From: a virus
Taxonomy: Duplodnaviria; Heunggongvirae; Uroviricota; Caudoviricetes
Length of the DNA stretch: 64,000 bases
Virus record (IMG/VR): IMGVR_UViG_3300006217_002764
Reading direction: 5' to 3' (one strand)
The position numbers and the translations under genes are program-made. The notes beneath the pieces are model-generated. The model searched no databases. It was not told where the DNA came from and saw only the letters and a program-made list of their open reading frames with translations. Below, one piece after another: positions 5,896 through 45,712 of the stretch (positions are counted from its first letter, which is position 1; each line of letters starts with the position of its first letter).

Positions 5896-6288
5896 ATGCT
5901 TGACGCTCGAATGCAACAAGCGTATCTGGCGTCGTTCCAATACGACGACATCGACCATGAGGCCTTGCCCGGTGATGATGATTACACGCCGCGTGTGGGA
6001 GACGAGGGCGTGTTGTACATGGATTATCCGGATGGGTCAGGTGACGCGGAGGAACTGATGTTCCGTGTCGGGGCTATGGGTTCAGGCCTGCCGGTCATCG
6101 AGACGCGCACATCCACCGATACTGATTGGGATGAGGAGCCGCTGCTGTTCTTCGATCTGGTCGATCCCAGCGGCGGCATGATCCTTGTGTTGCAATCCCG
6201 TGCACATGTGGGCGAACCGCCCCAATACCCGTACGACATGACGGAAACCGATCCGAAACTCTTCGACCTCGACAAGGAGAACCTATGA
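5896..6288 (+). CDS. hypothetical acidic protein
   Basis: 130-aa ORF. Stop overlaps the RNA ligase start (ATGA). Confidence 0.5.
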   Translation: MLDARMQQAYLASFQYDDIDHEALPGDDDYTPRVGDEGVLYMDYPDGSGDAEELMFRVGAMGSGLPVIETRTSTDTDWDEEPLLFFDLVDPSGGMILVLQSRAHVGEPPQYPYDMTETDPKLFDLDKENL

Positions 6289-7394
6289 GCCGCAAACTCG
6301 TCAGCGTCCAGACCATCAGCCGGATCGAACCAATCCCGGGAGCCGACCGTATCGTGCTCGCGCACGTGCTGGGTTGGAAGGTCATCATCAGCAAGGACAT
6401 GCACCTATCCGTGGGCGACAAGGTTGCGTATTTCGAAACGGACAGCCTGCTGCCCGAATCGGATCCACGCTACACGCAGTTCATGCCGCGTGGCATACGC
6501 CACGTGCGGTTGGAGGACGGCGCCATGGTCACGGGGCATGTGCTGCGCACCATGAAGATGCGCGGCGTGTACTCACAAGGCTTGGTCATGCGATTGGATG
6601 ATCTGGGGTTGTCGGACACGCTGCCGGTGGGTACGGACATCACTGAAGCATGCAATGTCATCAAATACGAGCCGCCCGTGTTCACCGGCCGTGGCGCCAA
6701 CCGTCAGGACAAGGCATTGCAGCGCGCCATGCAGGGCATCATCGGCGAGTTCAACGCGCCATGCTCCAAGTCGGATGCCCCACGTGCCCAGACCCTCACC
6801 GGCATCTGGCATGAACTATGCAAACTGGAGGCGGTGCCTACGGTGAAAGTAGACGGGATGAGCCTGACGTTCTTCTTCGACGGCAGCGAGTTGCACATGT
6901 TCACCCGCAACTATGAGGTCGATCCCACACACCCGGATTGGCGGGACGCATGCGAGCTCGCGCACCGTTATTTCACCTCACGTATCGGCGGGTTGAGCGT
7001 GTTCGACATCGGCATGGGCATGTGTGTGCAGACCGAATACGCCGGACCCGGCATCAACGGCAACCGGCAGAAGCTAGCCAAGCGTGACCTGTTTGTGTTC
7101 GCCGTCTGGCAGGACGGAGAGAAACTGCCGCGTGACGAATGGGAGGATTCGTTCCTTGCGCGCGCGGCCCCTGAAGTCAACCCGTGGGAGTACCCGCTCG
7201 CCGACAGCATGGACACGTTGATCAGTGCCGTGGACGGCATGCGCGGCCACATCACCCCCGACGCGTTGGACGAAGGCATCGTCTGGCATCTCGACCCGAA
7301 CCAGCCCATTCCCGACACGGTACGCGGCGAGTTGGGAGACAACCTGTGTTTCAAGATCATCAACAACTCGTACCTGACCAAACACCACCTGTAA
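6285..7394 (+). CDS. ATP-dependent RNA ligase (N-terminal OB/tRNA-binding-like domain plus nucleotidyltransferase)
   Basis: Ligase motif I KxDG (VKVDGMSLTF) with a downstream covalent nucleotidyltransferase-like region. The N-terminal VSVQTISRIEPIPGADRIVLAHVLGWKVIISK resembles the OB fold seen in DRB0094-type RNA ligases. Confidence 0.65.
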   Translation: MSRKLVSVQTISRIEPIPGADRIVLAHVLGWKVIISKDMHLSVGDKVAYFETDSLLPESDPRYTQFMPRGIRHVRLEDGAMVTGHVLRTMKMRGVYSQGLVMRLDDLGLSDTLPVGTDITEACNVIKYEPPVFTGRGANRQDKALQRAMQGIIGEFNAPCSKSDAPRAQTLTGIWHELCKLEAVPTVKVDGMSLTFFFDGSELHMFTRNYEVDPTHPDWRDACELAHRYFTSRIGGLSVFDIGMGMCVQTEYAGPGINGNRQKLAKRDLFVFAVWQDGEKLPRDEWEDSFLARAAPEVNPWEYPLADSMDTLISAVDGMRGHITPDALDEGIVWHLDPNQPIPDTVRGELGDNLCFKIINNSYLTKHHL

Positions 7395-11154: not shown

Positions 11155-11732
11155 TGATGGGTTTGGAACCGTACCTTGACCAATACCGGCAGTGGGTGGA
11201 CACATTGCATACGCCGCATGGTGGTGAACTGTTTCCCGCATGGTGGCAAGCGAAGACCGTTAATCTTGCCCATGTTGTTCTTGCGCTGCTCGTCATGATG
11301 ATGGCACTGGCCGCGGTGTGGGTCGTGGTGAAAGGTTCGGTGAACGCCATCCTCCTCATCAGGGGGAGGCAACCACATTCAGCAAGGCATTGCATGGGGT
11401 GGTTCCTCCAAGCCGGACTCTGCGTATGCGCGGCGGTAACCCTGTTCTTCACAGGGGTTCCGAAATGGTACACAGCCATCCCGCAGCCGACACAGACCAT
11501 CGCCAACTACGTCGAACGGCAGGCCGGTGTCTCGCATATGGCATGCAAACGGCTCCCAAAAACGCCCATAGACACCTATGACCCTAAGAACCTGCTGGAT
11601 TTGACCGGCTACTATCCGTGCACCGTCACCCTGCCGGATGGGGCCGCCGTGAACGCCACGTTGAACATCCGCGGCACTCAGTTCTCCCTTACGCAAACCT
11701 CGAACGGCAAACTATTGACGAAAGGATCCTAA
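11151..11732 (+). CDS. membrane protein
   Basis: ATG (MMMGLEPY) overlaps the previous stop. Several TM segments. Confidence 0.45.
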   Translation: MMMGLEPYLDQYRQWVDTLHTPHGGELFPAWWQAKTVNLAHVVLALLVMMMALAAVWVVVKGSVNAILLIRGRQPHSARHCMGWFLQAGLCVCAAVTLFFTGVPKWYTAIPQPTQTIANYVERQAGVSHMACKRLPKTPIDTYDPKNLLDLTGYYPCTVTLPDGAAVNATLNIRGTQFSLTQTSNGKLLTKGS

Positions 11733-11734
11733 TC

Positions 11735-11989
11735 ATGGCTTCGATGACCGGACCGCTACGACGCATATGGGCGCACTTGGCCTGCCATGGCTGGCCGCTC
11801 ATGGTGGGCGGTTTTTTGAGCGGGTTCGCATTCCGTTTTTCCTTATATGACAACCTGTGGTTCATCCTCCCCGCATTGGCCGGCATCCTACTGGTCATCC
11901 CCCTCATCACCGCCACCATAACGGACACGATCACAACAGTGAAACATTGGCGAGAGGAACCGCCAAGCACGAAAGGAAGCAAACAATAA
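11735..11989 (+). CDS. small membrane protein
   Basis: 84 aa, two TM helices. Confidence 0.4.
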   Translation: MASMTGPLRRIWAHLACHGWPLMVGGFLSGFAFRFSLYDNLWFILPALAGILLVIPLITATITDTITTVKHWREEPPSTKGSKQ

Positions 11990-12156
11990 TGCGACGAATC
12001 TGGTCATGGCTGGACAACAGCATAGTGGCCCTGCTGATCACATTCCCGTTCAGTCTTGGCGTGGTCCTCGCTGACAACATATCCCCTTGGTTCCTCATGC
12101 TGTCCGCATTGTCGGCATTGTTGTGGATCCCATACGTCACGGGTGTGGCACAGTAG
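11989..12156 (+). CDS. small membrane protein
   Basis: 55 aa, two TM helices. Stop overlaps the previous gene. Confidence 0.35.
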   Translation: MRRIWSWLDNSIVALLITFPFSLGVVLADNISPWFLMLSALSALLWIPYVTGVAQ

Positions 12157-13728
12157 CTAGTTTTGTACTAAGTCATGGTACTTACTAGTTCCGGCCAGTT
12201 TCCCGTTGGCTGGTGCGGGTCGCTGTCCACCCGGAGCGCCTGTAACGTCCGGGACCGCGCCGTCTATCGGCTGGTTCCAGCGTTGCCGGAATCGCCAGTC
12301 GAGTAGTTGGCGGGTGTTCTTGCGCGCCTTGGGGCCCGTGTTGTCCGGATGTTGCCACGAACGTCGTGACTGGATGACACGGGCCGCGTTGATGTCGGCG
12401 TGCATGGTTTTGCCGCAGAAACGGCAAGTGAATCTGGCTCGGCTGGCACGGTTCTTTTTGTCCGTGTATCCGCAGCCGGAGCATTCCTGTGACGTGTATT
12501 GTGCGGGTACCTGTTCAACCGTGATGCCCGCGGTTTCCTGTATGGCTTCGAGTTTGCGTTTCAGTGCGGCGCGGCCGGTGCGGGTGATGAGACGGTTCAT
12601 GCGTTTGCTCATGCCGCCTCCCCGGAAGTCGAGGCGTTCGACCACGAGCGTCTTGACTTGTTCGGGGTCGTGTTTCAGGGCGAGCTGGTTGATGATGCGC
12701 CCCACCTCGTTCTTCACGGTTTCGCGGATGCGTCGGTTGAGGCGTTCGTGTTCCCGGTCGCCTTTTCTTTTCAGGCTGCGTTTGGCGAGCCACTGGTCAT
12801 GCTCGATCAGCTGTTCATCCAACACGCGCAGTCGTTCGAGCATTTTTCTGCCGAACAGGTGTCCGTCGCTGGTGGCGAGGAGTGCGTCGGCCATACCGAA
12901 ATCGAGGCCCACGGTGCGTCCGGTGTCGCGTTGTGCACTGTCGGGGATGTCGAGCACGAGACTCATCGAGAAATCCTTCGTGCCCTTGACGCGATGCAAC
13001 TGGACCACGCCGCACATGCCACCACCCCGTGCTACGGCATCCTCATAGGCGTGCTCGAAATGCGTGTTGGCCAGCAAGCCGACTTCGACAGGCTTTCCCT
13101 TGGTGAGGGTACTGGTCTTGACCCACCATGAGACGCGTGGATGGTCTGTGTTGTCTGGACGTTCCGGCTTGGCGACGATACGGTCCAGCACCAACGTATT
13201 CACGCGCCCCATATCGGGAAACCTGTTGCTCTTGGTGGCTTGTTTGACCAAGAGGCGCGCCAGTTTCAACAGGCGTGGCTCCACGTCCACCATGACCTTG
13301 TTCCTGACCTTCATGCCACACGGTACGAGCACACCGTCCTTGTCGGGTTTCCATGGCAGTTGGAACTCGGGTTTCCACCACGCATGCCACTTGTTGACCC
13401 GCAGCAGCACCAGCTTGTCGTCATCCGTCAGGGACGAATCCGTGACGAGATGGCGTACGCGCAGTTCCAGCAACGCCTGCCATGATAGGAGCTGGGTGCG
13501 TACCATGTTGCCCACGCTTTTCATCTGCCGCGCCGACAAGCCCCCAACGCTTGTCTTGTCCGGCAACGCCACATACAAGGGCAGGTCGGCGCCCTGCTGC
13601 AACCGGACATGCCAGTACGCCATCGTTTTCTTCAACGCGTCCCTGAACGGCGCGAACAGCGCGTTAAGCGCGTTAAGCTTACCTGCGTTTAAGTCGAGGA
13701 TTCCATGCAGATACGCGCGCTTCATCAC
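12157..13728 (-). CDS. tnpB: TnpB-like RuvC/zinc-finger protein (IS607-type OrfB)
   Basis: RuvC motifs GLDFG and VVERLDF, C-terminal zinc finger CSGCG...CRFCG, and DINAARVI. Confidence 0.8.
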   Translation of the reverse strand: MMKRAYLHGILDLNAGKLNALNALFAPFRDALKKTMAYWHVRLQQGADLPLYVALPDKTSVGGLSARQMKSVGNMVRTQLLSWQALLELRVRHLVTDSSLTDDDKLVLLRVNKWHAWWKPEFQLPWKPDKDGVLVPCGMKVRNKVMVDVEPRLLKLARLLVKQATKSNRFPDMGRVNTLVLDRIVAKPERPDNTDHPRVSWWVKTSTLTKGKPVEVGLLANTHFEHAYEDAVARGGGMCGVVQLHRVKGTKDFSMSLVLDIPDSAQRDTGRTVGLDFGMADALLATSDGHLFGRKMLERLRVLDEQLIEHDQWLAKRSLKRKGDREHERLNRRIRETVKNEVGRIINQLALKHDPEQVKTLVVERLDFRGGGMSKRMNRLITRTGRAALKRKLEAIQETAGITVEQVPAQYTSQECSGCGYTDKKNRASRARFTCRFCGKTMHADINAARVIQSRRSWQHPDNTGPKARKNTRQLLDWRFRQRWNQPIDGAVPDVTGAPGGQRPAPANGKLAGTSKYHDLVQN

Positions 13729-20733: not shown

Positions 20734-20821
20734 CGCCCTATTGGCAGACGCAATGAGGAAGGTTTCCTCGTGCATGAGATAGGCGAGGACGGTATATGAG
20801 GTATACCGTACAGCCAGTACA

Positions 20822-20971
20822 GGAGTTTCCATGCCTGTACGGGGATGCCCAGGTCGAACCGCCCCTCCCACTCACGCAGGTAGGAGTGTCCTCGCTTGTA
20901 CGGGGCATCCGCAGACCGTCCACCAGACGAATCTCACCAGTCTGGAGTGTCCTCGCTTGTACGGGGCATCC
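20822..20971 (-). CRISPR. mini CRISPR-like array (3 repeats of 28 nt, 2 spacers of 32-33 nt)
   Basis: Identical repeats GGAGTGTCCTCGCTTGTACGGGGCATCC at 20883-20910 and 20944-20971 (plus strand). A degenerate copy GGAGTTTCCATGCCTGTACGGGGATGCCC sits at 20822-20850. Spacers are unique. The degenerate repeat is distal to a conserved promoter motif at 21236-21266 on the minus strand, which gives a leader of about 270 nt. Confidence 0.4.
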
Positions 20972-21235
20972 CCTATCCAAACCGTTGCAAAACCAAGGTT
21001 CTGCAACATTAGGGAACCCGAAAAACTTCAGCTTGCCCCACACGCGTGGACATGACCACCTTGCGGCGGTCAGCTTCAAGTCTCACACCACCAGTTCGAC
21101 GGCTGCTTGATAGGCGTTTCATCGAACCTGTCCAGCAAACCCGAAGGTGGCTGGCACTGGGTTCTCCACGCCCGTTGTCCGTATCCGCCACACTCTCGAA
21201 AAGTGTGGTTCGTGTCCTGCACAAGCCTCTTATGC

Positions 21236-21266
21236 AGCTGTCTTCAGTATAGCACATACATGTTTA
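21236..21266 (-). promoter_or_regulatory. conserved promoter motif upstream of the CRISPR-like array
   Basis: Minus-strand reading gives catgtatgtgcTATACTgaagacagc. Partial match to the element-wide motif. Confidence 0.4.
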
Positions 21267-21482: not shown

Positions 21483-21932
21483 GTGGGAATCATGGCTGAC
21501 GTGTTCGATGTCGCGGCGTACATCCTGAACAAACAGGGACGCATGACGACGATGAAATTGCAGAAACTCTGCTACTACGCGCAGGCATGGCATCTGGTAT
21601 GGGCGGAGAAACCACTGTTCGACGAACCCATTCAAGCGTGGGCGAATGGCCCGGTATGCCCAGAACTGTACCAAGCACATAAAGGGAAGTTCGACATCGA
21701 TGCCCGTGAGCTTCCACAGGGCAACCCGCAGGCATTGACGGATCGAGAACGCAGGGACATCGACGAGGTTCTACGTTTCTATGCGCCCATGGGAGCCTAT
21801 CACCTCAGTGAACTCACCCATCATGAGGATCCCTGGAAGGATGCCCGCGGGGACCTACCGGTAGGGGCCAGATGCAATACGGTCATAACCTTGGCCGCAA
21901 TGGCCGAATATTACGGTTCTATCACTGACTGA
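21483..21932 (+). CDS. Panacea-domain (SocA/GepA-like, DUF4065) protein, putative antitoxin
   Basis: Hallmark KLQKLCYYAQAWHLVW plus downstream conserved aromatic and Pro residues. Confidence 0.65.
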   Translation: MGIMADVFDVAAYILNKQGRMTTMKLQKLCYYAQAWHLVWAEKPLFDEPIQAWANGPVCPELYQAHKGKFDIDARELPQGNPQALTDRERRDIDEVLRFYAPMGAYHLSELTHHEDPWKDARGDLPVGARCNTVITLAAMAEYYGSITD

Positions 21933-22438
21933 TGTCACGCAGACGATCATTGCGGAACCGTGCAAGGCCACAAGCCTCGGCGGAGAGGGTTCCGCAGGCG
22001 GCGCTGAACAGACACGGCGCGTATCGGGTACCCAAGAACGCTGACAGTTTCGACGGTCTGCCGGACAAGCATCATATCGTGTTCCGTTTCGACTGTGTGG
22101 ATATAGAAGCCGATTGCCCGTGGTCGTTGGCGGACATCACCCAGACCGATCACGTGACGTTGCTGCGCAAACTCCGAGAGTTCGAATGCTGCACCCTCAG
22201 TGAAATACTCAGTCCAAGCTATAAGGCTTTCCACCTGTATACGAATTTCAGTGATTGTCCGAACAGGAAGGCGGTGAGGCGTCTGGGTGAGCGCTACGAG
22301 TGCGACAGTGATGCCATCGCACGGTTCCGTCTTGGCGGGACGGAACGGTTGTATGGTTTTCTTGTCGGCCATGAGTTTCATATTCTGTGGTGGGACAAGG
22401 ATCATGAGATCTGGCCGAGCAGGAAGAAGAATACCTGA
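21932..22438 (+). CDS. hypothetical protein translationally coupled to the Panacea gene (candidate toxin)
   Basis: TGATG overlap with the Panacea gene. 168 aa. No recognisable fold. Confidence 0.45.
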   Translation: MSRRRSLRNRARPQASAERVPQAALNRHGAYRVPKNADSFDGLPDKHHIVFRFDCVDIEADCPWSLADITQTDHVTLLRKLREFECCTLSEILSPSYKAFHLYTNFSDCPNRKAVRRLGERYECDSDAIARFRLGGTERLYGFLVGHEFHILWWDKDHEIWPSRKKNT

Positions 22439-22492: not shown

Positions 22493-23521
22493 TCACGCTC
22501 GCATTTTATCGTCGATGCTGATTGGGTCGAGTATGTGCACGACGCTTCCGGTGTTCAGGCTTTTGTAGGTCAGTTGGCGGGTGAATTCGGCGAATGCCGC
22601 GTCCGTGAGGCTTTGCGCGAGCATGTGGTGTCGCATGCCGCGTTTGATGTTGACTTTCTGTATGTTGATGACGGCGTATTGGTCCACAAGCCGGCGGGTC
22701 AATTCGTGCAGCATCGTGTCACGCAACGCTTTGATGCGCTTGTGGATGCGGTTGACCTTGCGGCGTTGCTCCTCGTAGCGGACGCTTCCACGGGCTTTGC
22801 GTGACAGGTCACGGGACGCCTTGCGCAACCCCTCCAACGCCTGCCGGTATGGTCGCGGCAGATCGATCCGGGTACCGTCCGACAGGATGATGTGTTCCAA
22901 GGTGAACACGCACCAGATGTCGGGTTTTGTGTTCACGGGTGGCGCCGGTTCGGGGGTTTCGCACAATAGGCTCGCGTACCATGTGTCGTGTTCGCAACGG
23001 ATGGTGGTGGTTTTCACCTTGCGGCCGGCCACGAGCCGGTGGATGTTGCGCAAGGTGTGCACGCGTCCGATGCGGGGCAGTCTGATGCCATGGTCGTCGG
23101 GGATGGTGATGGCGCTGAATGCGAACGATTTGACCGCGCTACGGGGTTTGAACTTGGGGAAGCCGACGGGGGATCCTTTGCGTTTGCCTGACAGGCTTTT
23201 GAGGAAATTGCTGGATGCTTTGCCGAGGTTGTCGAACGCGCAGTTATAAACCTGTGAGGCGACCTCATCCCACCATGGGGCCAACCGGTCGCGGTTGGCG
23301 CGCCACCAGTAGCCGAGTTTGATGACATTGTTGTCGATTTTGATGAGGTCTTTCTTGCCGACGCCTGATTCGACCTGCGCCTTGCGCTCCTCCAACTGTT
23401 CCTTCATATGTTGCAACGCGGCGTTGTACGCGAAACGTGCCGCGCCCGCGTACATGCGGAACATGCGCTCTTGTACGGGGGTGGGGTCGAGCGGGACTTT
23501 CACCGCCTCATACGTGGTCAT
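22493..23521 (-). pseudogene. tnpB: TnpB-like gene truncated before the zinc finger
   Basis: N-terminal TnpB signature VKVPLDPTPVQERMFRMYAGAARFAYNAAL and RuvC-II region INIQKVNIKRGM...LTDAAFAEF. The ORF stops right after ILDP, where the YTSQ..C..CG zinc finger should follow. Confidence 0.55.
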
Positions 23522-24479: not shown

Positions 24480-25075
24480 GATGCCTCCTTACTGGCGTGG
24501 TCGTACAAATACAATGCGTCCCGTTTGACCTCCACCCGTTCCAGCATGTCGCCCAATTGGCGGGTGTCGAACCCGTGCGAGCAGACCAGGTGGTAGCCGT
24601 TGATAGTGGCGATGACGGTGACCGCGCCCGGCGCCTCACTCTCCTCGTAGATGCGTTCGATGCGCCGGCGCAACGCTTCGGCACGGATCCAGCTTGGATC
24701 GTCCACGTCGAGCAGCCAGTGGCGTTCGGCGCGTTGTTCGGGTTGCATGGCGACGCTCAGGGCCATCTGATCGAGGGTGGCCATGTCCATGTCCGTCGTG
24801 TCGATGAGCACATGCATGAGCGCGGTGCGAGTCTTCGCGTTGTCGCGTGCGTTGACAGACACGTAGAAGCGGCTCACCTCGCCCGGTTTGCCTTGGTTCA
24901 CGAACCGGGTGAACCGGTCGCGCAGTTCGAAGGGTCTCTTGCGGGTCAGGAACGACTCGCACCGTTCTACGAACCCGTCCACCTGTTGGTTGTCCTTGCG
25001 GCGGGAACGGAACAGGACACCATGCAACGGACGGCTGTCGGCGGTGATGCGTTTGGGATGGTAATGGTTGCTCAT
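24476..25075 (-). CDS. hypothetical protein
   Basis: 199-aa ORF. ATGA overlap with the kinase-ligase gene. Confidence 0.45.
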   Translation of the reverse strand: MSNHYHPKRITADSRPLHGVLFRSRRKDNQQVDGFVERCESFLTRKRPFELRDRFTRFVNQGKPGEVSRFYVSVNARDNAKTRTALMHVLIDTTDMDMATLDQMALSVAMQPEQRAERHWLLDVDDPSWIRAEALRRRIERIYEESEAPGAVTVIATINGYHLVCSHGFDTRQLGDMLERVEVKRDALYLYDHASKEAS

Positions 25076-26805
25076 GATGCGGTCTCCTTGTCATGGTGGG
25101 CCAGCCAGTCGGTGACTTGGGTCATGTCCACCGCATCCCGGTCGAATGCGCTTTGATGGTAGACGAGTTGTTCGCGTGGGATCGCAGCCAACACGGCCCG
25201 CACCAACCGCGAGCGTTCCGAATCGTCCTGCGGGACGGGCTTGCCGCGCAGCAGGATGTTCTCCAGTACGGGGCGCAAACGTTTCGACTGGAGGTACAGG
25301 TCGGATTTGACTTTCACCATGTACCCGTCCGCACCGTAGATGACCACGCCCTCGCGTGATGATAGGGCCGCATCATGCAAGGCTTGGCGCAGTCCGGTCT
25401 CGTCCTGAATCATGTACCAGTCTGGACGGTACGGAAACAACGTGTTCAACAGGCTGTCCGCCTGCATGTCGATGGCGAATTCCACATGGTTGTGGATTGC
25501 ATGCAGGTAATACAGGCGTGACTTGTCGTAGTGGATGATGTGCTGGTCGGATTCCGCGTCCACGATCTCACAGGCCACGGTGACATCATGCGCACGCATG
25601 GTCTGCCATATCTCATGCCGCGTGTATGGGTCGGGCAGGTCACGGAGGAACGCTTTCTCAATCAGCGGCGAATAGTCGGTCTGGCCGCTCTTCGAATAGA
25701 AACGGAACACGCCCTCCTGTTCGGTTGCGCCGATCAATCCGAGGAAACCGTTCTCCTTCATCTCCACGCGCGCCGGGTACGTCATATGTTCCAGCACGTT
25801 GTCAAGACTGGTCTGCTTGTTCTCCCCGAGGTTGAAGAACTTGTCGAACCCACGCATCACCACGTCACCGGCGCTGTTGAGGAACAGGCCGCGGGCCTTC
25901 GACGAGTATTCGTCCCATGCGTGGTTGCGGAACGCGTCCCGGGTGAAATTGCACGCCCATAGATCTTCCTCGCCACGTACCGGCATGACGCGCACATTCG
26001 GGTTGTCGCGCATCTGGTCCAACAGGGTCGGTTCCGGTTCGGGGCAGGGCAGGTCGTCCGTGTTGCTCATCCGCCAGTCCAACCACTGTTGCGATGCACC
26101 GTGGCACAGCCAAGTGCAGTACACGTCGGACGGCATGAGTGGATTGTTCACCGCGGGCACACACAGCATGTCAGCGGTGTGGTTGCGGCCGTGCTGGGAG
26201 GGGAGAAACGCTTTGACCATGCGGAACGTGTCCACGCTCAACGGTTTGCATGCCATCCGGTACGCGCCCATCGCGTCGACCAACGCGAATGTGTGGCTGT
26301 GTTCGCTGGGACGCCACATGTGGCGTCCGGCGGGTTCGACGGGCACATGCACCCACTGCATGGGTGTGGAGATACTGTCCGTATACCGTTCGTACTGGGC
26401 CCGCAAATACTCCTCGGGCACCTGGTCGTCCTCGGCGCGATGGCGGTTGCGTTCCAGCAACGTGTCCAACGGTACGGGGAATGCCACGGTTTGCACGTCC
26501 GCGTTGCAGTCGGCGGCCAACCCTACCAGTTCATGCACGCGTTCCATGTTGGCGTTCTGTGCGTCCATGATCACGTTCAGGCCTTTGCGCAACGCGTCGC
26601 AGACCATGGCGTGCGCCGTACGCACAATCAGTTTCTCTGTTGTCGCAGTGCGATGCGCATGGTAGGCGGCCAGACTTCCCGCCGTCATACGTCGCAACCC
26701 ATCCAAGGACACGATGATCGTATCTGGATGGTTCGTCACGCACTTGCGCGCCCATGTGCTTTTGCCGCTCGCGGGCAGCCCGCGCAGGATGACCAACGTC
26801 GCCAT
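25072..26805 (-). CDS. polynucleotide kinase (P-loop) fused to RNA ligase (nucleotidyltransferase)
   Basis: N-terminal Walker A VILRGLPASGKSTWARK (T4 Pnk/AAA_33-like kinase). C-terminal ligase motif I KENG (RVEMKENGFLGLIG). Confidence 0.6.
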   Translation of the reverse strand: MATLVILRGLPASGKSTWARKCVTNHPDTIIVSLDGLRRMTAGSLAAYHAHRTATTEKLIVRTAHAMVCDALRKGLNVIMDAQNANMERVHELVGLAADCNADVQTVAFPVPLDTLLERNRHRAEDDQVPEEYLRAQYERYTDSISTPMQWVHVPVEPAGRHMWRPSEHSHTFALVDAMGAYRMACKPLSVDTFRMVKAFLPSQHGRNHTADMLCVPAVNNPLMPSDVYCTWLCHGASQQWLDWRMSNTDDLPCPEPEPTLLDQMRDNPNVRVMPVRGEEDLWACNFTRDAFRNHAWDEYSSKARGLFLNSAGDVVMRGFDKFFNLGENKQTSLDNVLEHMTYPARVEMKENGFLGLIGATEQEGVFRFYSKSGQTDYSPLIEKAFLRDLPDPYTRHEIWQTMRAHDVTVACEIVDAESDQHIIHYDKSRLYYLHAIHNHVEFAIDMQADSLLNTLFPYRPDWYMIQDETGLRQALHDAALSSREGVVIYGADGYMVKVKSDLYLQSKRLRPVLENILLRGKPVPQDDSERSRLVRAVLAAIPREQLVYHQSAFDRDAVDMTQVTDWLAHHDKETAS

Positions 26806-26832
26806 CGTTCGATTCCTTTCCGTAAGTCGTGT

Positions 26833-27570
26833 TCAGCGGTGCCGTTTCAGCGTGGGATGCGGCTCCGGCGGGAAGGAGATCAACCGTTCCGCGTCGACGA
26901 AATGCCACAGCACCTGTTCCTCGCTCACCGGCCGCATGTTCCATGCGTCCACACCGATGTTGAGCTCACGCGGGTTGGCGAACTCGAACGGGTCCGTGGA
27001 GTGTGTATGCCCGTGCAGCAGCCAGCTGAAGCCGTTGTCCACGAACGCATACTGGGCGTATTGCGGGTCGCATGCGTTCGTGCTCAACCCGCTGGGCGTG
27101 GGCTGTTCGAAATGGTGGCGGAATTGGAAGTGCGACAAGAGCACGTTGAGTTTGCCGATGGTGGTCGCACCCCCGGTATCGACGGTGACGAACACGTCCA
27201 ACAGTTGCCGCATCTGCGAGTATCCGCAGCGCAGGTCCTCATGGTTACCGAGGATCAGGTGCCGCCTGCCGCGTGGCACGCGCAGCCCTTCGAGGGTTTG
27301 CAACGCGCCGGTCAGGCTTGCCCGTCCGCCGGTGCTCAAGTCCCCCAGCACGTAGAGTTCGTCTTCCTCCCCGACCCGTTCGTTGATGTTGTCGATGATG
27401 GTGTGGTCGTGGCGCTGCCAGTCCACCATGTCAGCGAGTTTCCAACGGTTCGTGCGCGCGTATTCGCGTAGGTCGGCGGCGGCCAGATGCGCGTATTCAG
27501 GTTTTGCGTATCCACGCAACGCGGCCACGAACGGGTGGTGCAAATGCAAATCGGAAGTGAAATACTTCAT
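26833..27570 (-). CDS. calcineurin-like metallophosphoesterase
   Basis: Motifs SDLHLHH, YVLGDLS, GNHE and GHTH. Start MKYFTSDLH at 27570. Confidence 0.7.
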   Translation of the reverse strand: MKYFTSDLHLHHPFVAALRGYAKPEYAHLAAADLREYARTNRWKLADMVDWQRHDHTIIDNINERVGEEDELYVLGDLSTGGRASLTGALQTLEGLRVPRGRRHLILGNHEDLRCGYSQMRQLLDVFVTVDTGGATTIGKLNVLLSHFQFRHHFEQPTPSGLSTNACDPQYAQYAFVDNGFSWLLHGHTHSTDPFEFANPRELNIGVDAWNMRPVSEEQVLWHFVDAERLISFPPEPHPTLKRHR

Positions 27571-27583
27571 GGCTTGTTCTCCC

Positions 27584-28030
27584 TTAGTCTTTGCTGATGG
27601 ACTCGTCGATGGGGGCCCAACCAGTGTTCTCGTCGTACAGGTCGCGCACGGACCATGCATCATTGACGAACAGGTACACGTATTCGGCCCACATGCCACG
27701 TGCGGCCTCCACGAATGCGTCACGGTCCACATATACGGCGGCCTGCATGGCATCATTCTTGCCGTAGGTGCTGGCGGCCGCTGTTTTCGAAGGCGGATAG
27801 CCGTTCTTGTCGATGTCGCGGCGTTTCTCCGCATCGTCCATGAATGCGGCAGGCGTCTGCCCGAGCACGTCGATCTCACCCAACGCCATGAGCTCCTCCA
27901 CTTGCACCCCATCTGTGTAATGGTCGCGCAACACTTTCCCGTTGTATGACGGGTACCCGTCGCACTGGCAGTAGATGGCCGTGATGGAACCGTCCCCATG
28001 CTGCATGCCGATCAAGCTACGAGTAGTCAT
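27584..28030 (-). CDS. hypothetical protein
   Basis: ORF immediately upstream of the phosphoesterase. Confidence 0.4.
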   Translation of the reverse strand: MTTRSLIGMQHGDGSITAIYCQCDGYPSYNGKVLRDHYTDGVQVEELMALGEIDVLGQTPAAFMDDAEKRRDIDKNGYPPSKTAAASTYGKNDAMQAAVYVDRDAFVEAARGMWAEYVYLFVNDAWSVRDLYDENTGWAPIDESISKD

Positions 28031-32802: not shown

Positions 32803-33020
32803 TCCCCACGTTGAGCAGAGATTCTTGTTGCAATACCGTCCAGCTTGCTTTCTGGGGCCAGTGAACTGGGTTATTTAGTGGAGCAGCTGCTTGATGGACA
32901 CAAGATACGGGAGCACAAGGGGACTATCGCGATAAAAACAAACACGGAAAGACCGTCACGCACAGCTCCATAGCAATATTTCATGCCCTGCCGCAAGATT
33001 GAGGGGACTATCGCGACAGG
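32797..33020. repeat. iteron copies (one direct, two inverted) flanking the rep gene 3' end
   Basis: TTTGTCGCGATAGTCCCCAC at 32797, with inverted copies GGGGACTATCGCGA at about 32911 and 33003. Confidence 0.6.
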
Positions 33021-33720: not shown

Positions 33721-33736
33721 ATCGGCAGTAGGGCTG

Positions 33737-33897
33737 AGGTGGAATCGTTTGTCGCGATAGTCCCCATGTTTTGTCGCGATAGTCCCCATTTTCATTCGCG
33801 ATAGTCCCCATTTTCATTCGCGATAGTCCCCACGGTTTTGGCCCCTAACCCCCTGTTTGTCGCGATGGTCCCCATAGTTTTGTCGCGATAGTCCCCA
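33737..33897 (+). repeat. iteron array, 6 direct copies of TTTGTCGCGATAGTCCCCAT at 22-24 bp spacing
   Basis: Copies at about 33740, 33762, 33786, 33809, 33852 and 33876, with minor variants (TTCATTCGCGATAGTCCCCA, GCGATGGTCCCCA). Confidence 0.7.
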
Positions 33898-44042: not shown

Positions 44043-44115
44043 GTGGGCTGGCGGGATTCGAACCCGCGACCTCCGGATTAAACGTCCGGTGCTCTGTCCT
44101 CTGAGCTACAGCCCC
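44043..44115 (-). tRNA. tRNA-Lys(TTT)-like with unusual G33 (anticodon loop cgTTTaa)
   Basis: Hand-folded. D-stem gctc/gagc, anticodon stem ccgga/tccgg, T-arm gcggg-TTCGAAT-cccgc. 1:72 is G:A. Confidence 0.45.
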
Positions 44116-44256
44116 GCGCATGCCCACCGTCATGATCGGCCGGATATGCGGGATGCGTTCACCATCGCCTTATGGTGTTGCCGAAGATGGCGTGTCTTCG
44201 ACCGTTCCGATCTTTAATAGGATCGTAGACGAGCCTGCACCAAGGCCCGACCTGCG

Positions 44257-44325
44257 TGGGGCGGCCGGATTCGAACCAGCATCCGCTAGCGCTCTGCCAT
44301 TTGAGCTACGCCCCCGGTGGGATGG
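44257..44325 (-). other. truncated tRNA-like element (acceptor, D-arm and T-arm but no anticodon arm)
   Basis: About 64 nt. gggggcg-ta-gctcaaatggcagagc...gctgg-TTCGAAT-ccggc-cgcccc. Confidence 0.35.
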
Positions 44326-44413
44326 CGATCAACCCATCCCCTCCACCTGCACCGATACCGGTGGGGCCCCGTATTGGCGGGGCCATCGGCTCGGGGATAC
44401 CGGTCCGATCGGA

Positions 44414-44484
44414 ACCGGAATCGCACACCGGGATGGAATCGAACCACCGCCTGCGGTTTTGGAGACCGCCGTCCTACCATTGGA
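44414..44484 (-). tRNA. tRNA-Trp(CCA)
   Basis: Hand-folded. Anticodon loop ctCCAaa on stem gcggt/accgc, D-stem gtcc/ggac, T-loop TTCGATT, acceptor with two G-U pairs. Confidence 0.55.
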
Positions 44485-44659
44485 CCACCGGCATATATGG
44501 TGCGCGTCCCTCATGGGCAACGCACCACCGTCCCATGCGTCCGCCTACCATCACGACCTATAGCCACGCCCCTTGATGGGCACAACAACGCCGCTCGGCA
44601 AGCCGACCACACGGGCCCGCATCCAAAACCGTCAACTGGCGTTCCGGTTGGATGCCTCG

Positions 44660-44732
44660 CAGGCGAGGCAGGATTCGAACCTGCAACCCACGGTTCCAAA
44701 GACCGTCGTGCTGCCAATTGCACCACTCGCCT
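44660..44732 (-). tRNA. tRNA-Gln(TTG)
   Basis: Acceptor aggcgag/ctcgcct perfect, D-stem gtgc/gcac, anticodon loop ctTTGga, T-arm gcagg-TTCGAAT-cctgc. Confidence 0.6.
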
Positions 44733-44947
44733 ATACCATGCGGCCTATGCGGCCGCGATGGTCACGGTTTGCGCGCCCAATCACCCGCTGGGCACCCTCC
44801 GCCGGTGCCGGAGGAGACGGACATTGCCCGCCTGTACGCCACCATGCTCTGCTTGGTCTGCCACGACAAGGTGGATGCCGCGGGAAGCCCGTATCATGGA
44901 CCCCTATGCCTGCCCATTGGACGCCGGGCAGGTGGCGTATCCTTTCG

Positions 44948-45020
44948 TGCTTTCGGCGGGATTCGAACCCGCGGCCTTCCGCTCCGGAGGCGGACGCCCT
45001 ATCCACTGGGCCACGAAAGC
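44948..45020 (-). tRNA. tRNA-Arg(CCG)
   Basis: Acceptor gctttcg/cgaaagc perfect, D-arm gccc-agtggata-gggc, anticodon loop ctCCGga, T-arm gcggg-TTCGAAT-cccgc. Confidence 0.65.
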
Positions 45021-45059
45021 GTAGTGTCCAGCGCCGTGCCAACGGCTGTGCACGTGCCT

Positions 45060-45110
45060 GATACGCACCGTGCGTGGAATCGAACCACGATCGGGATCGC
45101 CACCATAACC
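45060..45110 (-). other. tRNA fragment (isolated T-arm hairpin)
   Basis: cgtgg-TTCGATT-ccacg without matching acceptor or D-arm. Confidence 0.3.
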
Positions 45111-45233
45111 CGGTCGCCGCCCCCGCACCCCATACCGGGAGGGGCCGCACCACCAACCACACCGCTTTCATATCAGTACTCACGGCCAGCCGCGTGCGCA
45201 ACCGGTTCACAGCGCTTTCCAGCTCTGGACTCG

Positions 45234-45613: not shown

Positions 45614-45712
45614 GTGACCACCTACCCCGCCTGACACGGAGCCGGCCAGCCGTCAGGAAACCAGCCTTCCATAATCGTGGCATCACAGCCGATGATCGAA
45701 CTGCTTCTTTCG

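What the first reader, a model, noticed from the sequence alone, without database searches (positions are those of the whole stretch)
20822..21266. Orphan mini CRISPR-like array with promoter and leader, no cas genes in the window
There are two identical 28-nt repeats and a third degenerate one, separated by unique 32-33-nt spacers. Repeat architecture (CCTCGC-loop-CGGGG core) loosely resembles type I-E repeats. The degenerate repeat lies distal to a 270-nt leader-like segment that begins with the element promoter motif on the minus strand, which matches canonical array polarity. Phages and plasmids are known to carry cas-less mini-arrays that borrow host Cas proteins to attack competing mobile elements. 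The two spacers would name the targets.
Basis: partly seen in the sequence, partly recalled or inferred. Interest (0 to 1): 0.7.

Follow-up and report, generated by a model that had tools for sequence, protein, structure and literature searches.

The report
Guide array of a dead TnpB-derived effector
The mini CRISPR-like array is real but not orphan: it is the guide-RNA module of a tiny, nuclease-dead TnpB/Cas12-like protein encoded 1.5 kb away on a Bifidobacterium plasmid-like element, and this family probably silences rival plasmids.

Summary
**Observation: confirmed.**
- There are three 28-nt repeats (two identical, one 75% identical) with a 61-nt period at 20822-20971.
- They are transcribed on the minus strand from a recurrent extended -10 motif.

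**Interpretation: partly right.**
- The 270-nt "leader" is a conserved structured scaffold RNA that contains Rfam RF03015. It is homologous to the omega-RNA of IS607 TnpB.
- The same strand encodes a 342-aa TnpB/Cas12n-like protein (23521->22493).
  - It has lost all three RuvC catalytic residues and the zinc ribbon.
  - It is nevertheless under purifying selection (dN/dS 0.17-0.31).
- Gene, scaffold and array travel together in B. animalis, B. cuniculi, B. canis and metagenome loci. Nuclease-intact 394-400-aa sister proteins have the same layout.
- On this strand the repeats are 20-21/28 identical to Bifidobacterium type I-E repeats and have I-E dimensions. However, they have lost the Cas6e hairpin and the I-E handle.
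- Spacers differ completely between close relatives.
- Three spacers from relatives match Bifidobacterium mobile elements: the plasmid pASV479 rep gene (32/33), a second pASV479 gene, and this element family. The two clear protospacers carry a 5'-AAC flank, as reported for Cas12n.
- The window's own two spacers have no identifiable target.

**Verdict.** This is a new variant of a known kind: a V-U4/Cas12n/TranC-like system, naturally dead like TldR or Cas12m.

The parts
22493..23521 (-). Gene for a 342-aa nuclease-dead, C-terminally truncated TnpB/Cas12n-like effector. The RuvC-I Asp and RuvC-II Glu are replaced, and RuvC-III and the Zn ribbon are absent.
   Evidence: Pfam HTH_OrfB_IS605 + OrfB_IS605, no Zn ribbon. 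Alignment with intact relatives and with ISDra2 TnpB. PADLOC Cas12f/Cas12u4 at 3e-61/3e-59 and NCBIfam IS607_TnpB below cutoff. dN/dS 0.17-0.31.
21246..21254 (-). Extended -10 promoter-like motif TGCTATACT, the element's recurrent promoter motif, about 8 nt upstream of the scaffold start.
   Evidence: 20 copies in the window versus 3.3 expected. The same motif is upstream of the scaffold in L026, L007 and L015. Promoter activity is inferred, not shown.
20972..21237 (-). Conserved, structured guide-RNA scaffold (tracrRNA/omega-RNA-like).
   Evidence: 8-module alignment with 75% mean identity. RNAalifold gives 61 pairs, 18 with compensatory changes. The nhmmer profile hits after the gene in all related loci that have sequence there. 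MFE -106.3 kcal/mol, z = -3.29, 0 of 200 shuffles as stable.
21049..21120 (-). Match to Rfam RF03015 'Transposase-2 RNA' inside the scaffold.
   Evidence: 57.9 bits (gathering score 42.7), full length 1-69. The same family overlaps the 3' end of canonical IS607-type tnpB genes in L005, L006 and L022.
20944..20971 (-). Repeat 1 (scaffold-proximal): GGATGCCCCGTACAAGCGAGGACACTCC.
   Evidence: 20/28 identical to the B. animalis type I-E repeat.
20911..20943 (-). Spacer 1: AGACTGGTGAGATTCGTCTGGTGGACGGTCTGC.
   Evidence: No target found.
20883..20910 (-). Repeat 2, identical to repeat 1.
20850..20882 (-). Spacer 2: TACCTGCGTGAGTGGGAGGGGCGGTTCGACCTG.
   Evidence: The only match is a 20-nt one judged to be chance.
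20822..20849 (-). Repeat 3 (distal, degenerate, 75% identical): GGCATCCCCGTACAGGCATGGAAACTCC.
   Evidence: Distal degeneration is also seen in L026 and L021.
20740..20821 (-). Structured 3' tail. One hairpin forms between repeat 3 and the conserved 15 nt TGTACTGGCTGTACG, followed by two further hairpins. It is the probable 3' end or terminator region, shared with the convergent gene.
   Evidence: The 15 nt are identical in L007. Fold -38 kcal/mol, z = -3.61. No T-run terminator was detected.
21483..22438 (+). Opposite-strand two-gene insertion between the effector gene and its scaffold: a SocA/Panacea-domain antitoxin-like ORF (21483-21932) and a 168-aa partner (21932-22438). It is not part of the system.
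   Evidence: Pfam SocA_Panacea 1.8e-19. NCBIfam SocA_antitoxin below cutoff and PADLOC NsnC 6.5e-6 for the partner. Absent from the closest relative L026, where the scaffold starts 267 nt after the gene.
27074..27105 (-). Protospacer-like site in the element's metallophosphoesterase gene. It is matched 29/32 by the single spacer of a nuclease-intact relative's array (L015). The 5' flank is TTTCGAA.
   Evidence: The homologous sites in L007 and L027 are also matched.

Best explanation
The array is the guide-encoding part of a miniature type V-like system derived from an IS607-type TnpB. A recurrent element promoter (21254->21246) drives one minus-strand transcript. That transcript consists of a ~266-nt scaffold homologous to the TnpB omega-RNA, followed directly by repeat-spacer units.

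The partner protein is the 342-aa TnpB/Cas12n-like product of 23521->22493. It keeps the RNA- and DNA-binding parts (WED, REC and the RuvC core fold). It has lost all three catalytic residues and the zinc-ribbon (TNB) domain, so it can bind DNA complementary to a spacer but cannot cut it.

I infer that it acts as an RNA-guided roadblock or silencer on competing Bifidobacterium plasmids and related elements, next to a 5'-AAN motif, in the manner of Cas12m or TldR. I also infer that new 32-33-nt spacers are installed at the scaffold-proximal repeat by the host's type I-E Cas1-Cas2, because the repeats are I-E-like in sequence, length and period.

Shown: the anatomy; the conserved linkage of gene, scaffold and array; loss of the active site; purifying selection; I-E-like repeats; spacer turnover; and mobile-element protospacers for spacers of relatives.

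Inferred: expression; binding without cleavage; silencing as the outcome; the acquisition route; and how the repeats downstream of the first one are processed or loaded.
For: Linkage:
- RF03015 and the 184-position scaffold profile lie on the gene's strand directly after the gene in L001-L008, L021 (two modules), L022, L026 and L028, and after the intact relatives in L014-L017 and L019.
- Arrays with a 59-63-nt period follow the scaffold in all loci that extend far enough.

Origin:
- RF03015 overlaps the 3' end of canonical IS607 tnpB genes.
- Canonical omega-RNA ends (...CAACGG[hairpin]CACTCCACC) parallel the scaffold end plus repeat.

Dead but maintained:
- The catalytic Asp and Glu are replaced and the C-terminus is deleted in all short-clade members.
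- dN/dS is 0.17-0.31 at dS 0.3-1.0.

Family placement:
- PADLOC Cas12u4 3e-59 and Cas12f 3e-61.
- By profile search, ISDra2 TnpB 7e-51 and RdCas12n (9J09) 1.6e-35.

Targets:
- B. cuniculi spacer versus the pASV479 rep gene, 32/33, E = 2e-4 in 7.3 Gb.
- B. canis spacer versus a second pASV479 gene, 22/29 with an 18/19 core.
- L015 spacer versus the phosphoesterase gene of this element family in three loci.
- Both clear protospacers have a 5'-AA then C flank. This matches the Cas12n AAN/AAC PAM (PMC12216341).

Turnover and polarity:
- L026, whose protein is 87% identical, has 7 different spacers, and its repeats degenerate with distance from the scaffold.

Type I-E link:
- 20-21/28 identity to host-genus I-E repeats in the transcribed orientation.
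- B. animalis subsp. animalis and B. cuniculi carry I-E systems with cas1 (PMC4521832, Table 1).
Against: - The window's own two spacers have no identifiable target in phages, plasmids, IMG/VR, GTDB genomes (S1) or JGI metagenomes (S2).
- Only 3 of about 29 family spacers have targets, and one of those three comes from a nuclease-intact relative.
- In the window the scaffold is 1.25 kb from the gene, with two opposite-strand genes between them.
- The P0003 lineage (L009-L013) shows no scaffold or array in the sequence available.
- No scaffold segment pairs with the repeat better than with shuffled repeats, so loading of the second and later units is unexplained.
- Nothing here shows transcription, RNA processing, DNA binding or silencing.
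- The I-E-like repeats leave room for some use by host type I-E proteins.
Confidence: 0.68

Rival explanations
1. The array is a cas-less type I-E mini-array. Its crRNAs are processed by host Cas6e and loaded into host Cascade/Cas3 to destroy competing elements. The nearby TnpB-like gene is incidental.
For: - Repeats are 20-21/28 identical to Bifidobacterium I-E repeats in the transcribed orientation, with the I-E length and 61-nt period.
- Species carrying related elements have I-E systems (PMC4521832).
- The AA-containing 5' flank of the protospacers is also compatible with I-E AAG-type PAMs.
Against: - The Cas6e hairpin is degraded: -2.7 to -7.6 kcal/mol versus -13 to -15 for genuine I-E repeats.
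- The last ~8 nt, which form the I-E 5' handle, are replaced by ACACTCC, which resembles the omega-RNA terminus.
- Every array sits directly behind a conserved structured TnpB-type scaffold and a TnpB-like gene. This includes loci whose repeats have drifted far from I-E, such as L014 and L015.
- An I-E leader would not be expected to carry RF03015 with compensatory base changes.
Confidence: 0.12
2. The protein is a TldR-type regulator of the element's own or the host's genes, not an anti-plasmid system. It uses the guides to tune expression of specific promoters, and the array is a way to hold several regulatory guides.
For: - The protein has the TldR hallmarks: a dead RuvC, a C-terminal truncation and a stable non-transposon neighbourhood.
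- All three protospacers found are in the sense orientation of the targeted gene, which places the TAM-proximal end towards the promoter. The TldR paper reports this geometry as effective for blocking elongation.
- One target lies in the element family itself.
Against: - Spacers are not conserved between close relatives, unlike fixed regulatory guides.
- No spacer of the window matches the window itself.
- The clearest target is the rep gene of an unrelated small plasmid.
- Spacer length and period are those of acquired CRISPR spacers, not ~16-nt omega-type guides.
- The apparent RBS+ATG enrichment in spacers is not significant (2/22, P = 0.075).
Confidence: 0.13
3. The locus is a decaying remnant. 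A formerly active Cas12n/TranC-like system lost its nuclease and is drifting, and the array is a fossil with no current function.
For: - All catalytic residues and the Zn ribbon are lost.
- The window has only two spacers and a degenerate terminal repeat.
- The B. canis copy of the gene is interrupted (P0010).
- One lineage lacks a detectable array.
Against: - dN/dS is 0.17-0.31 across species-level divergence.
- The ORF is intact in at least 5 lineages.
- The scaffold is conserved with compensatory changes, and the promoter motif is retained.
- The two scaffold-proximal repeats are identical, and spacer sets differ in every lineage.
Confidence: 0.07

Closest known systems
Type V-N / V-U4 CRISPR-Cas (Cas12n, C2c9), e.g. 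RdCas12n (PDB 9J09) and AcCas12n
   Same: - Actinobacterial hosts and a miniature TnpB-proximal effector.
- A long tracr/omega-like scaffold encoded at the 3' side of the gene, then a short array with no adaptation genes.
- A-rich 5'-AAN PAM (AAC for RdCas12n) versus the AA+C flank of the two clear protospacers found here.
- The PADLOC Cas12u4 model matches at 3e-59.
   Different: - Cas12n proteins are larger (average 544 aa) and are active nucleases (D287/E386/D484). Here the protein is 342 aa, with all three catalytic positions lost and no TNB domain.
- Sequence similarity to RdCas12n is partial (3.5e-15, RuvC core only; by profile 1.6e-35) and weaker than to ISDra2 TnpB.
- The scaffold does not overlap the ORF.
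- I could not check whether Cas12n repeats are I-E-like.
TldR (TnpB-like nuclease-dead repressors; fliC- and oppF-associated clades)
   Same: - A TnpB derivative with a deteriorated RuvC site and a C-terminal truncation.
- No transposase partner, and a fixed gene neighbourhood on a mobile element.
- A guide RNA derived from the omega-RNA.
- Expected mode of action: DNA binding without cleavage.
   Different: - TldRs use one adjacent gRNA with a short, fixed guide aimed at a specific host promoter.
- Here the scaffold is followed by a CRISPR-like array of 32-33-nt variable spacers, and the identified targets are coding regions of other mobile elements.
- This is a different, actinobacterial IS607-derived lineage.
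Cas12m (type V-M, formerly V-U1)
   Same: - A CRISPR-associated type V effector, often plasmid-borne, that lacks dsDNA cleavage.
- It interferes with plasmids by binding and silencing, and has a short array without adaptation genes.
   Different: - Cas12m is about 600 aa, processes its own crRNA without a tracrRNA, and uses T/C-rich PAMs.
- There is no specific sequence relationship: no Cas12u1 hit for the window's protein.
TranC (transposon-CRISPR intermediate) clades and V-U* systems of Altae-Tran et al. 2023
   Same: - TnpB-sized proteins nested among TnpBs that have acquired CRISPR arrays.
- The guide RNA is explained as an omega-RNA split or extended into scaffold plus repeats, with no adaptation module.
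- Some V-U* branches have altered catalytic sites.
   Different: - Characterised TranCs are active nucleases.
- LaTranC is only distantly similar (9e-6; by profile 8e-20).
- In the papers available to me I found no description of I-E-like repeats or of a nuclease-dead, truncated sub-clade in Bifidobacterium. Whether this clade is among the unnamed V-U*/TranC clades could not be checked, because the supplements are not held.
Type I-E CRISPR arrays of Bifidobacterium
   Same: - Repeat length of 28-29 nt, spacer length of 32-33 nt and a 61-nt period.
- 70-75% repeat identity in the same transcriptional orientation.
- The degenerate terminal repeat is distal to the upstream region.
   Different: - The GC hairpin recognised by Cas6e is broken, and the 3' handle differs.
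- The upstream region is a TnpB-type scaffold RNA rather than an AT-rich leader.
- No type I cas genes were seen among the window ORFs I scanned.

Membership tests
Type I-E CRISPR array (host-Cascade-dependent mini-array) | 28-29-nt repeats, 32-33-nt spacers, regular 61-nt period | tested here: met
Type I-E CRISPR array (host-Cascade-dependent mini-array) | Repeat sequence of the I-E class in the transcribed orientation | tested here: met
   20/28 (window) and 21/28 (L021b) to the B. animalis I-E repeat. Shuffles give a mean of 11.5 and a maximum of 16. The reverse complement scores 13, and I-C and I-G repeats are at background.
Type I-E CRISPR array (host-Cascade-dependent mini-array) | Stable 6-7-bp GC hairpin (Cas6e substrate) and a conserved 3' handle (ATGATCCG in Bifidobacterium) | tested here: not met
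   Hairpin MFE is -2.7 to -7.6 kcal/mol, versus -12.9 to -15.1 for I-E repeats. The last ~8 nt are ACACTCC.
Type I-E CRISPR array (host-Cascade-dependent mini-array) | A cognate I-E cas operon in the same cell | not testable with these tools
   The window's host genome is unknown. No cas genes were seen among the window ORFs I scanned. Two species that carry related elements have I-E systems, according to PMC4521832 Table 1.
Type V-N (Cas12n / V-U4) | Effector belongs to the Cas12n protein family | tested here: inconclusive
   PADLOC Cas12u4 3e-59, but a Cas12f model (3e-61) and NCBIfam IS607_TnpB (6e-60, below cutoff) match equally well. RdCas12n 9J09 matches at 3.5e-15 over residues 220-327 only (by profile 1.6e-35), which is weaker than ISDra2 TnpB.
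Type V-N (Cas12n / V-U4) | Long tracrRNA-type scaffold at the 3' side of the gene, followed by a short array, with no adaptation genes | tested here: met
   In the window the scaffold is displaced 1.25 kb by an insertion. The scaffold lies after the ORF and does not overlap it.
Type V-N (Cas12n / V-U4) | 5'-AAN PAM | tested here: inconclusive
   Two clear protospacers, both of relatives' spacers, carry 5'-AA followed by C. A sample of two is too small, and there is none for the window's own spacers.
Type V-N (Cas12n / V-U4) | Intact RuvC D-E-D site and TNB zinc finger (dsDNA nuclease) | tested here: not met
   RuvC-I D->T/F, RuvC-II E->N/Q, and RuvC-III plus the Zn ribbon are deleted. The sister proteins P0012-P0016 retain them.
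TldR (TnpB-like nuclease-dead repressor) | TnpB homologue with an inactivated RuvC site, maintained by selection | tested here: met
TldR (TnpB-like nuclease-dead repressor) | Loss of the transposon context and a stable association with non-transposase genes | tested here: met
   The same upstream genes (136-aa, ~176-199-aa, and the RNA ligase/kinase) occur in the window, L007, L010, L026 and L027. There is no adjacent TnpA.
TldR (TnpB-like nuclease-dead repressor) | A single adjacent gRNA with a fixed short guide complementary to a promoter region of a specific host or neighbouring gene | tested here: not met
   Arrays hold 2-8 repeats with variable 32-33-nt spacers. There are no self-matches in the window. 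The identified targets are coding regions of other elements.
TldR (TnpB-like nuclease-dead repressor) | RNA-guided DNA binding that represses transcription | not testable with these tools
   Requires ChIP-seq, RNA-seq or reporter assays.
OMEGA (IS607 TnpB with omega-RNA) | Guide-RNA scaffold homologous to the omega-RNA at the 3' end of tnpB | tested here: met
   RF03015 at 57.9 bits. The same family lies inside canonical tnpB 3' ends. nhmmer gives partial hits to canonical IS607 elements, including annotated B. longum IS607.
OMEGA (IS607 TnpB with omega-RNA) | Transposon context (TnpA, defined ends, a single guide taken from the flank) and an active nuclease | tested here: not met
   No TnpA is adjacent, the synteny is fixed, the guide module is an array, and the active site is dead.
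Cas12m (type V-M) | Membership of the Cas12m/V-U1 protein family with self-processed crRNA | tested here: not met
   The window's protein has no Cas12u1 hit in PADLOC. UnCas12m4a matches only at 5e-5, and only for P0016. A long scaffold RNA is present. The resemblance is functional only.

The most novel reading that the evidence does not exclude
This may be a natural hybrid system. A 340-358-aa nuclease-dead TnpB descendant would be the smallest CRISPR-associated programmable DNA binder known so far. It would read an array whose repeats are chimeras: a type I-E repeat body, kept so that the host's I-E Cas1-Cas2 can add spacers, joined to an omega-RNA guide-adjacent tail, kept so that the TnpB-type scaffold and protein can use them. 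In effect this would be an adaptive 'CRISPR-TldR': heritable, updatable transcriptional or replicative silencing used by Bifidobacterium conjugative elements against rival plasmids.
Probability: 0.35. Interest if true: 0.85.

Novelty: new variant of a known kind. Interest (0 to 1): 0.7.

Why it matters
- **Bridging two lines of work.** TnpB-derived dead repressors (TldR, fixed guide, gene regulation) and CRISPR-associated non-cutting effectors (Cas12m, Cas12k) have so far been treated separately. This would be a TnpB-sized dead protein that has an updatable spacer array.
- **A concrete evolutionary intermediate.** Nuclease-intact (394-400 aa) and dead (340-358 aa) sister proteins share the same scaffold and array design, so the steps of nuclease loss can be compared directly.
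- **A testable idea about array origin.** The I-E-like repeats offer a testable case of how a system without an adaptation module gets its array and spacers, by capture or mimicry of a host type I-E array.
- **Practical value.** A 342-aa natural RNA-guided DNA binder with an A-rich PAM would be attractive for compact CRISPRi or epigenome tools. Such systems may also affect plasmid maintenance and transformability in bifidobacteria.

Tried and rejected
1. **Targets of the window's spacers.**
   - BLAST against INPHARED phages and PLSDB plasmids gave only hits with E >= 1.
   - Exact 20-mers were absent from IMG/VR and, for S1, from GTDB genomes.
   - S2 gave one 20-nt match in a JGI metagenome contig. 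It has non-bacterial-looking coding density, no extension of the match and an unrelated flank, so I judged it chance.
   - There are no self-targets in the window.
2. **Spacers of relatives.** In IMG/VR there was nothing for two B. cuniculi spacers. One 21-nt match for an L007 spacer was judged chance. L026's seven spacers gave nothing.
3. **Spacers aimed at translation start regions.** 2 of 22 spacers, P = 0.075, and the test was post hoc. Rejected.
4. **A long tracrRNA-type anti-repeat.** RNAalifold suggested pairing of a scaffold GGUGUGGGG segment with the 5' half of the repeat. However, the same scaffold segment forms a covarying local hairpin, the pairing is absent in L014 and L015, and RNAduplex energies are no better than for shuffled repeats in 12-85% of shuffles. 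Not supported.
5. **The conserved 15-nt tail after the last repeat as a fixed guide.** There is no target in the window. It folds into a hairpin with the last repeat instead.
6. **The element as a phage.** There are no relatives in IMG/VR or INPHARED. The gene content is conjugative or plasmid-like.
7. **My first impression that the plus strand resembles E. coli I-E repeats.** The quantitative comparison shows the minus strand is the I-E-like one.
8. **Literature on RF03015.** The motif is not discussed in the main text of Weinberg 2017, and no supplements are held.
Full report
**1. The observation.**
The sequence at 20822-20971 contains three 28-nt direct repeats with start-to-start spacing of 61 and 61 nt. 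The copies at 20883 and 20944 are identical, and the copy at 20822 is 75% identical to them. The exact repeat is absent from the rest of the window, against 0 expected in shuffles. A k-mer scan finds no other CRISPR-like array in the 64 kb. The two 33-nt spacers are unique.

TGCTATACT, an extended -10, occurs 20 times at <=1 mismatch versus 3.3 +/- 1.8 expected, often as divergent intergenic pairs. One copy lies at 21254->21246 on the minus strand. A strict two-hexamer sigma-70 scan finds nothing in the region, so promoter function is inferred from recurrence and position.

**2. What surrounds it.**
Rfam places a full-length match to RF03015 ('Transposase-2 RNA', 57.9 bits, gathering score 42.7) at 21120->21049. 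That is inside the supposed leader and on the minus strand.

On the same strand, 23521->22493 encodes a 342-aa protein with the Pfam domains HTH_OrfB_IS605 and OrfB_IS605, but no zinc-ribbon domain. Between this gene and the RNA lie two plus-strand ORFs: a SocA/Panacea antitoxin-domain protein and a 168-aa partner.

**3. The protein is a nuclease-dead TnpB derivative that is being maintained.**
Database searching finds a clade of 340-358-aa proteins that are 70-100% identical. It includes proteins of B. animalis subsp. animalis and B. canis. Next come 394-400-aa relatives at 52-59% identity that keep the zinc ribbon, and then ordinary ~430-aa TnpBs at ~40%.

In the alignment, the short clade shows three losses:
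- The RuvC-I Asp (VGVDLG) is replaced by Thr or Phe.
- The RuvC-II Glu (IEDLN) is replaced by Asn or Gln.
- The clade ends before RuvC-III and the CxxC...CxxC motif.

The HMMER alignment to ISDra2 TnpB (8EXA) shows the same thing. No downstream ORF supplies the missing part: the scaffold RNA or unrelated genes follow immediately.

Pairwise dN/dS among five dead-clade genes is 0.17-0.31 at dS 0.3-1.0. The protein is therefore under purifying selection. Only the B. canis copy looks interrupted.

**4. Gene, scaffold and array form one conserved module.**
In B. animalis contigs (L001-L006), two metagenome lineages (L007/8, L026, L027-29), B. cuniculi (L021) and B. canis (L022), the gene sits in the same neighbourhood as in the window: the 136-aa and ~176-199-aa genes, and an RNA-ligase/kinase gene.

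It is followed on the same strand by RF03015. A 184-position nhmmer profile of the scaffold matches with E between 1e-48 and 1e-60.

Arrays of 2-8 repeats with a 59-63-nt period begin 20-80 nt after the scaffold, and each repeat ends in GGA(C/G/T)ACTCC.

B. cuniculi has two scaffold-plus-array modules. One is adjacent to the gene. The other is 1.4 kb further on, and its repeat differs from the window's by one base, so the window's layout corresponds to that distal module.

The closest relative, L026 (protein 87% identical), has the same TGCTATACT motif, the scaffold 267 nt after the gene, and no intervening genes. The toxin-antitoxin-like pair in the window is therefore an insertion.

The nuclease-intact sisters P0012, P0014 and P0016 have the same scaffold. 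Where the contig extends far enough, they also have arrays of 2 and 6 repeats with a 61-nt period.

One dead lineage (P0003, L009-L013) shows no scaffold or array in the ~6 kb available. That is the only exception.

**5. The 'leader' is a structured scaffold of omega-RNA origin.**
Eight modules align with 75% mean identity from CTGCATAAGAGGCTTGTGCAG to the first repeat, and each has a -10-like hexamer 6-8 nt upstream.
- RNAalifold predicts 61 pairs, 18 of them with compensatory double changes.
- The window's 266-nt scaffold folds at -106.3 kcal/mol versus -90.3 +/- 4.9 for shuffles (z = -3.29, 0 of 200 as stable).
- RF03015 and the 3' part of the scaffold profile also match inside the 3' end of canonical IS607-type tnpB genes. 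These include a B. longum plasmid gene annotated 'IS607 family element RNA-guided endonuclease TnpB'. That is where an omega-RNA lies.
- Canonical elements end ...CAACGG-CACTCCACC|flank (L022) or ...CAACGG-[24-nt hairpin]-GGATGTTCCACC|flank (L005). The window has ...CAACGGTTTGGATAGG followed by the repeat GGATGCCCCGTACAAGCGAG-GACACTCC.
- So each repeat occupies the position of the terminal hairpin plus the guide-adjacent tail of an omega-RNA, and the spacer occupies the position of the guide.

**6. The repeats are also type I-E-like, in the transcribed orientation.**
I compared the repeats with those tabulated by Briner et al. 2015 (PMC4521832). The window's repeat matches the B. animalis subsp. 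animalis I-E repeat GTTTGCCCCGCACAGGCGGGGATGATCCG at 20/28 positions, and the B. cuniculi module b repeat matches at 21/28. Shuffles give a mean of 11.5 and a maximum of 16 in 200. The reverse complement (13) and the I-C and I-G repeats (10-12) are at background.

Repeat length, spacer length and the 61-nt period are those of I-E arrays. Two things have changed:
- The strong Cas6e-type hairpin is lost. MFE is -2.7 to -7.6 kcal/mol here versus -12.9 to -15.1 for genuine I-E repeats.
- The last ~8 nt (ATGATCCG, the I-E handle) are replaced by ACACTCC, which resembles the omega-RNA terminus.

I read this as an I-E-derived or I-E-mimicking repeat adapted to a TnpB-type ribonucleoprotein. This makes spacer acquisition by host I-E Cas1-Cas2 plausible. 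B. animalis subsp. animalis and B. cuniculi LMG 10738 both have I-E systems with cas1 according to that table. This step is inference.

**7. Spacer content and targets.**
Spacer sets differ completely between lineages, even at 87% protein identity. They are identical among six B. animalis contigs. The repeats nearest the scaffold are the best conserved, and the distal ones degenerate, which fits polarised addition.

Of about 29 spacers, three have credible targets:
- **(a)** Spacer 3 of B. cuniculi module b matches the rep gene of B. pseudolongum plasmid pASV479 at 32/33 (E = 2e-4 against 7.3 Gb). It is in the sense strand, with the 5' flank CCATTAA.
- **(b)** A B. canis spacer matches another pASV479 gene at 22/29, with an 18/19 core.
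- **(c)** The single spacer of the nuclease-intact L015 system matches the metallophosphoesterase gene of this very element family: window 27105->27074 (29/32), L027 (29/32) and L007 (17/17 core). All are in the sense strand, and the 5' flank is TTTCGAA.

Both clear protospacers are thus preceded by AA and begin with C. This fits the 5'-AAN PAM of Cas12n, which is AAC for RdCas12n (PMC12216341). The first base after ...CTCC is C in 11 of 22 spacers.

The window's own spacers have no identifiable target.

**8. Placement among known systems.**
- PADLOC's best models are Cas12f (PDLC01700, 3e-61) and Cas12u4 (3e-59). NCBIfam's best is IS607_TnpB, below its cutoff.
- Against solved structures, ISDra2 TnpB is the best natural match (1.6e-32; by profile 7e-51; only an AI-designed TnpB-like nuclease, 9YYG, scores slightly better). 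It is followed by RdCas12n 9J09 (3.5e-15; by profile 1.6e-35) and, distantly, LaTranC.
- The family therefore sits between canonical IS607 TnpB and characterised Cas12n. It lies within the space described as V-U*/TranC: TnpB-sized proteins that acquired arrays without adaptation genes. Altae-Tran et al. count about 50 independent origins, some with inactivated sites (PMC10691335).
- Functionally, the dead sub-clade resembles TldR and Cas12m. It fails the TldR criterion of a single fixed promoter-directed guide, and it fails the Cas12n criterion of an intact nuclease.
- In the searchable literature I found no description of a nuclease-dead Cas12n/TnpB-like effector with an I-E-like array in Bifidobacterium. 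The supplementary clade lists of the large surveys are not held, so prior listing cannot be excluded.

**9. The carrier element.**
The window encodes the following:
- a ParA-like protein;
- an FtsK/SpoIIIE-like ATPase and an AAA_10 (VirB4-like) ATPase;
- a lysozyme+CHAP hydrolase;
- two RNA ligases, one with a polynucleotide kinase, and a phosphoesterase;
- a cluster of 7-8 tRNA genes;
- iteron-like 22-nt repeats.

Relatives carry RepA_C and SSB next to the module, and some are integrated in Bifidobacterium chromosomes. Nothing similar is present in IMG/VR, INPHARED or PLSDB. I regard the element as a conjugative, plasmid-like element rather than a phage.

**10. Mechanism, and what is still open.**
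Shown:
- the anatomy and the conserved linkage;
- the homology of the scaffold to the omega-RNA;
- active-site loss under purifying selection;
- I-E-like repeats;
- spacer turnover;
- mobile-element protospacers with AA flanks.

Inferred:
- One promoter yields scaffold-plus-array RNA.
- The dead protein binds it and occupies AAN-flanked complementary DNA without cutting.
- Occupancy of rep or other genes silences or destabilises rival plasmids.
- The sense-strand orientation of all three protospacers puts the PAM-proximal end towards the promoter. The TldR study found this geometry effective for blocking elongation. With three sites, this is only suggestive.

Open:
- How repeats beyond the first are used. 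I found no significant scaffold:repeat duplex. A long anti-repeat is therefore not supported, and the pairing may be limited to a few bases, as in the 3-bp pseudoknot of RdCas12n.
- What the window's two spacers target.
- Whether host I-E proteins contribute anything beyond, possibly, adaptation.

**11. Verdict.**
The array is real and functional-looking, but it is not orphan. It is the guide module of a naturally nuclease-dead, TnpB-sized, Cas12n/TranC-like system with I-E-like repeats on a Bifidobacterium mobile element. It is a new variant of a known kind, and of good interest.

Noticed in passing
window 12157-13728 (minus strand): A second, larger TnpB/Cas12f-like ORF of 523 aa. Its RuvC motifs are intact (GLDFG, VVERLD, HADINAA) and it has a CxxC...CxxC zinc finger. 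Pfam Cas12f1-like_TNB 5e-17, and PHROG 'transposase'. No array or obvious repeat lies downstream (11300-12300). Its omega-RNA, its transposon ends and any relation to the dead system were not examined.
   Followed up: partly
window 33730-33897, and 32918-32932 / 33002-33016: There are 7-8 tandem iteron-like units with a 22-nt period (TCGCGATAGTCCCCA + 7 nt). Two inverted copies (AGGGGACTATCGCGA) lie on the other side of a 170-aa ORF (33541->33029). This looks like a plasmid replication-origin or partition site.
   Followed up: no
window 21483-22438 (plus strand): A SocA/Panacea-domain antitoxin-like ORF (149 aa) overlaps by its stop codon a 168-aa ORF that has a weak PADLOC NsnC match (6.5e-6). 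The pair is inserted between the dead tnpB-like gene and its scaffold, and it is absent from the closest relative L026. It may be a toxin-antitoxin or defence cassette.
   Followed up: partly
whole window, e.g. 5125, 15537/15637, 28979/29019, 34027, 56139, 62925/62975: The extended -10-like motif TGCTATACT recurs 10 times exactly and 10 more times with one mismatch, often as divergent pairs in intergenic gaps. It looks like the element's own promoter signature.
   Followed up: partly
window 44043-45785 (minus strand); 6285-7394; 25072-27999: A cluster of 7-8 tRNA genes (Lys x2, Trp, Gln, Arg x2, Leu, plus one weak Rfam hit) occurs together with two RNA ligases, a polynucleotide kinase domain and a metallophosphoesterase. 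This is an RNA-repair toolkit, unusual for a conjugative or plasmid-like element. It is conserved next to the dead tnpB-like gene in relatives (L007, L010, L027).
   Followed up: no
L007 7346-7528; L022 9430-9697; L001 7292-7480: Some arrays are composites of two repeat types (…CCCACACGCGAGTGGAGACTCC followed by …CCCGTACAGGCGAGGACACTCC), with abnormally short junction 'spacers' of 2 or 11 nt. In B. cuniculi each of the two types has its own scaffold. This suggests that two modules were fused by deletion.
   Followed up: partly
literature: PMC4521832, Table 1: B. choerinum LMG 10510 is listed with an 'Undetermined' cas1-less array of 20 repeats, GTGCTCCTCGCAAGCGCGTGGACAACCCG. Its 3' half (GCGTGGACAAC) resembles the repeats of this family (e.g. 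L001 ...GGGCGTGGACACTCC). It could be a larger array of the same kind of system.
   Followed up: no
window 20740-20852 (minus strand): The 15 nt after the last repeat (TGTACTGGCTGTACG) are identical in L007 although the following sequence differs. They pair with the last repeat (GUACAGG/CCUGUAC), and two more hairpins follow (fold z = -3.61). This is probably a 3'-end or terminator structure rather than a guide.
   Followed up: partly
L022 8075-9102 (B. canis GSD1FS): The B. canis copy of the dead gene appears interrupted. The reading frame stops after 118 codons, and NCBI annotates a 305-aa N-terminally shortened protein. Its scaffold and 5-repeat array are nevertheless intact.
   Followed up: no
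L015 5539-5575: After the last repeat of the L015 array (nuclease-intact relative) comes CTAGTTTGCAACGGC. This is identical to the segment that precedes the omega-RNA terminus in the canonical IS607-type element of L022 (18705->18691). It may be a relic of the ancestral omega-RNA end downstream of the array.
   Followed up: no
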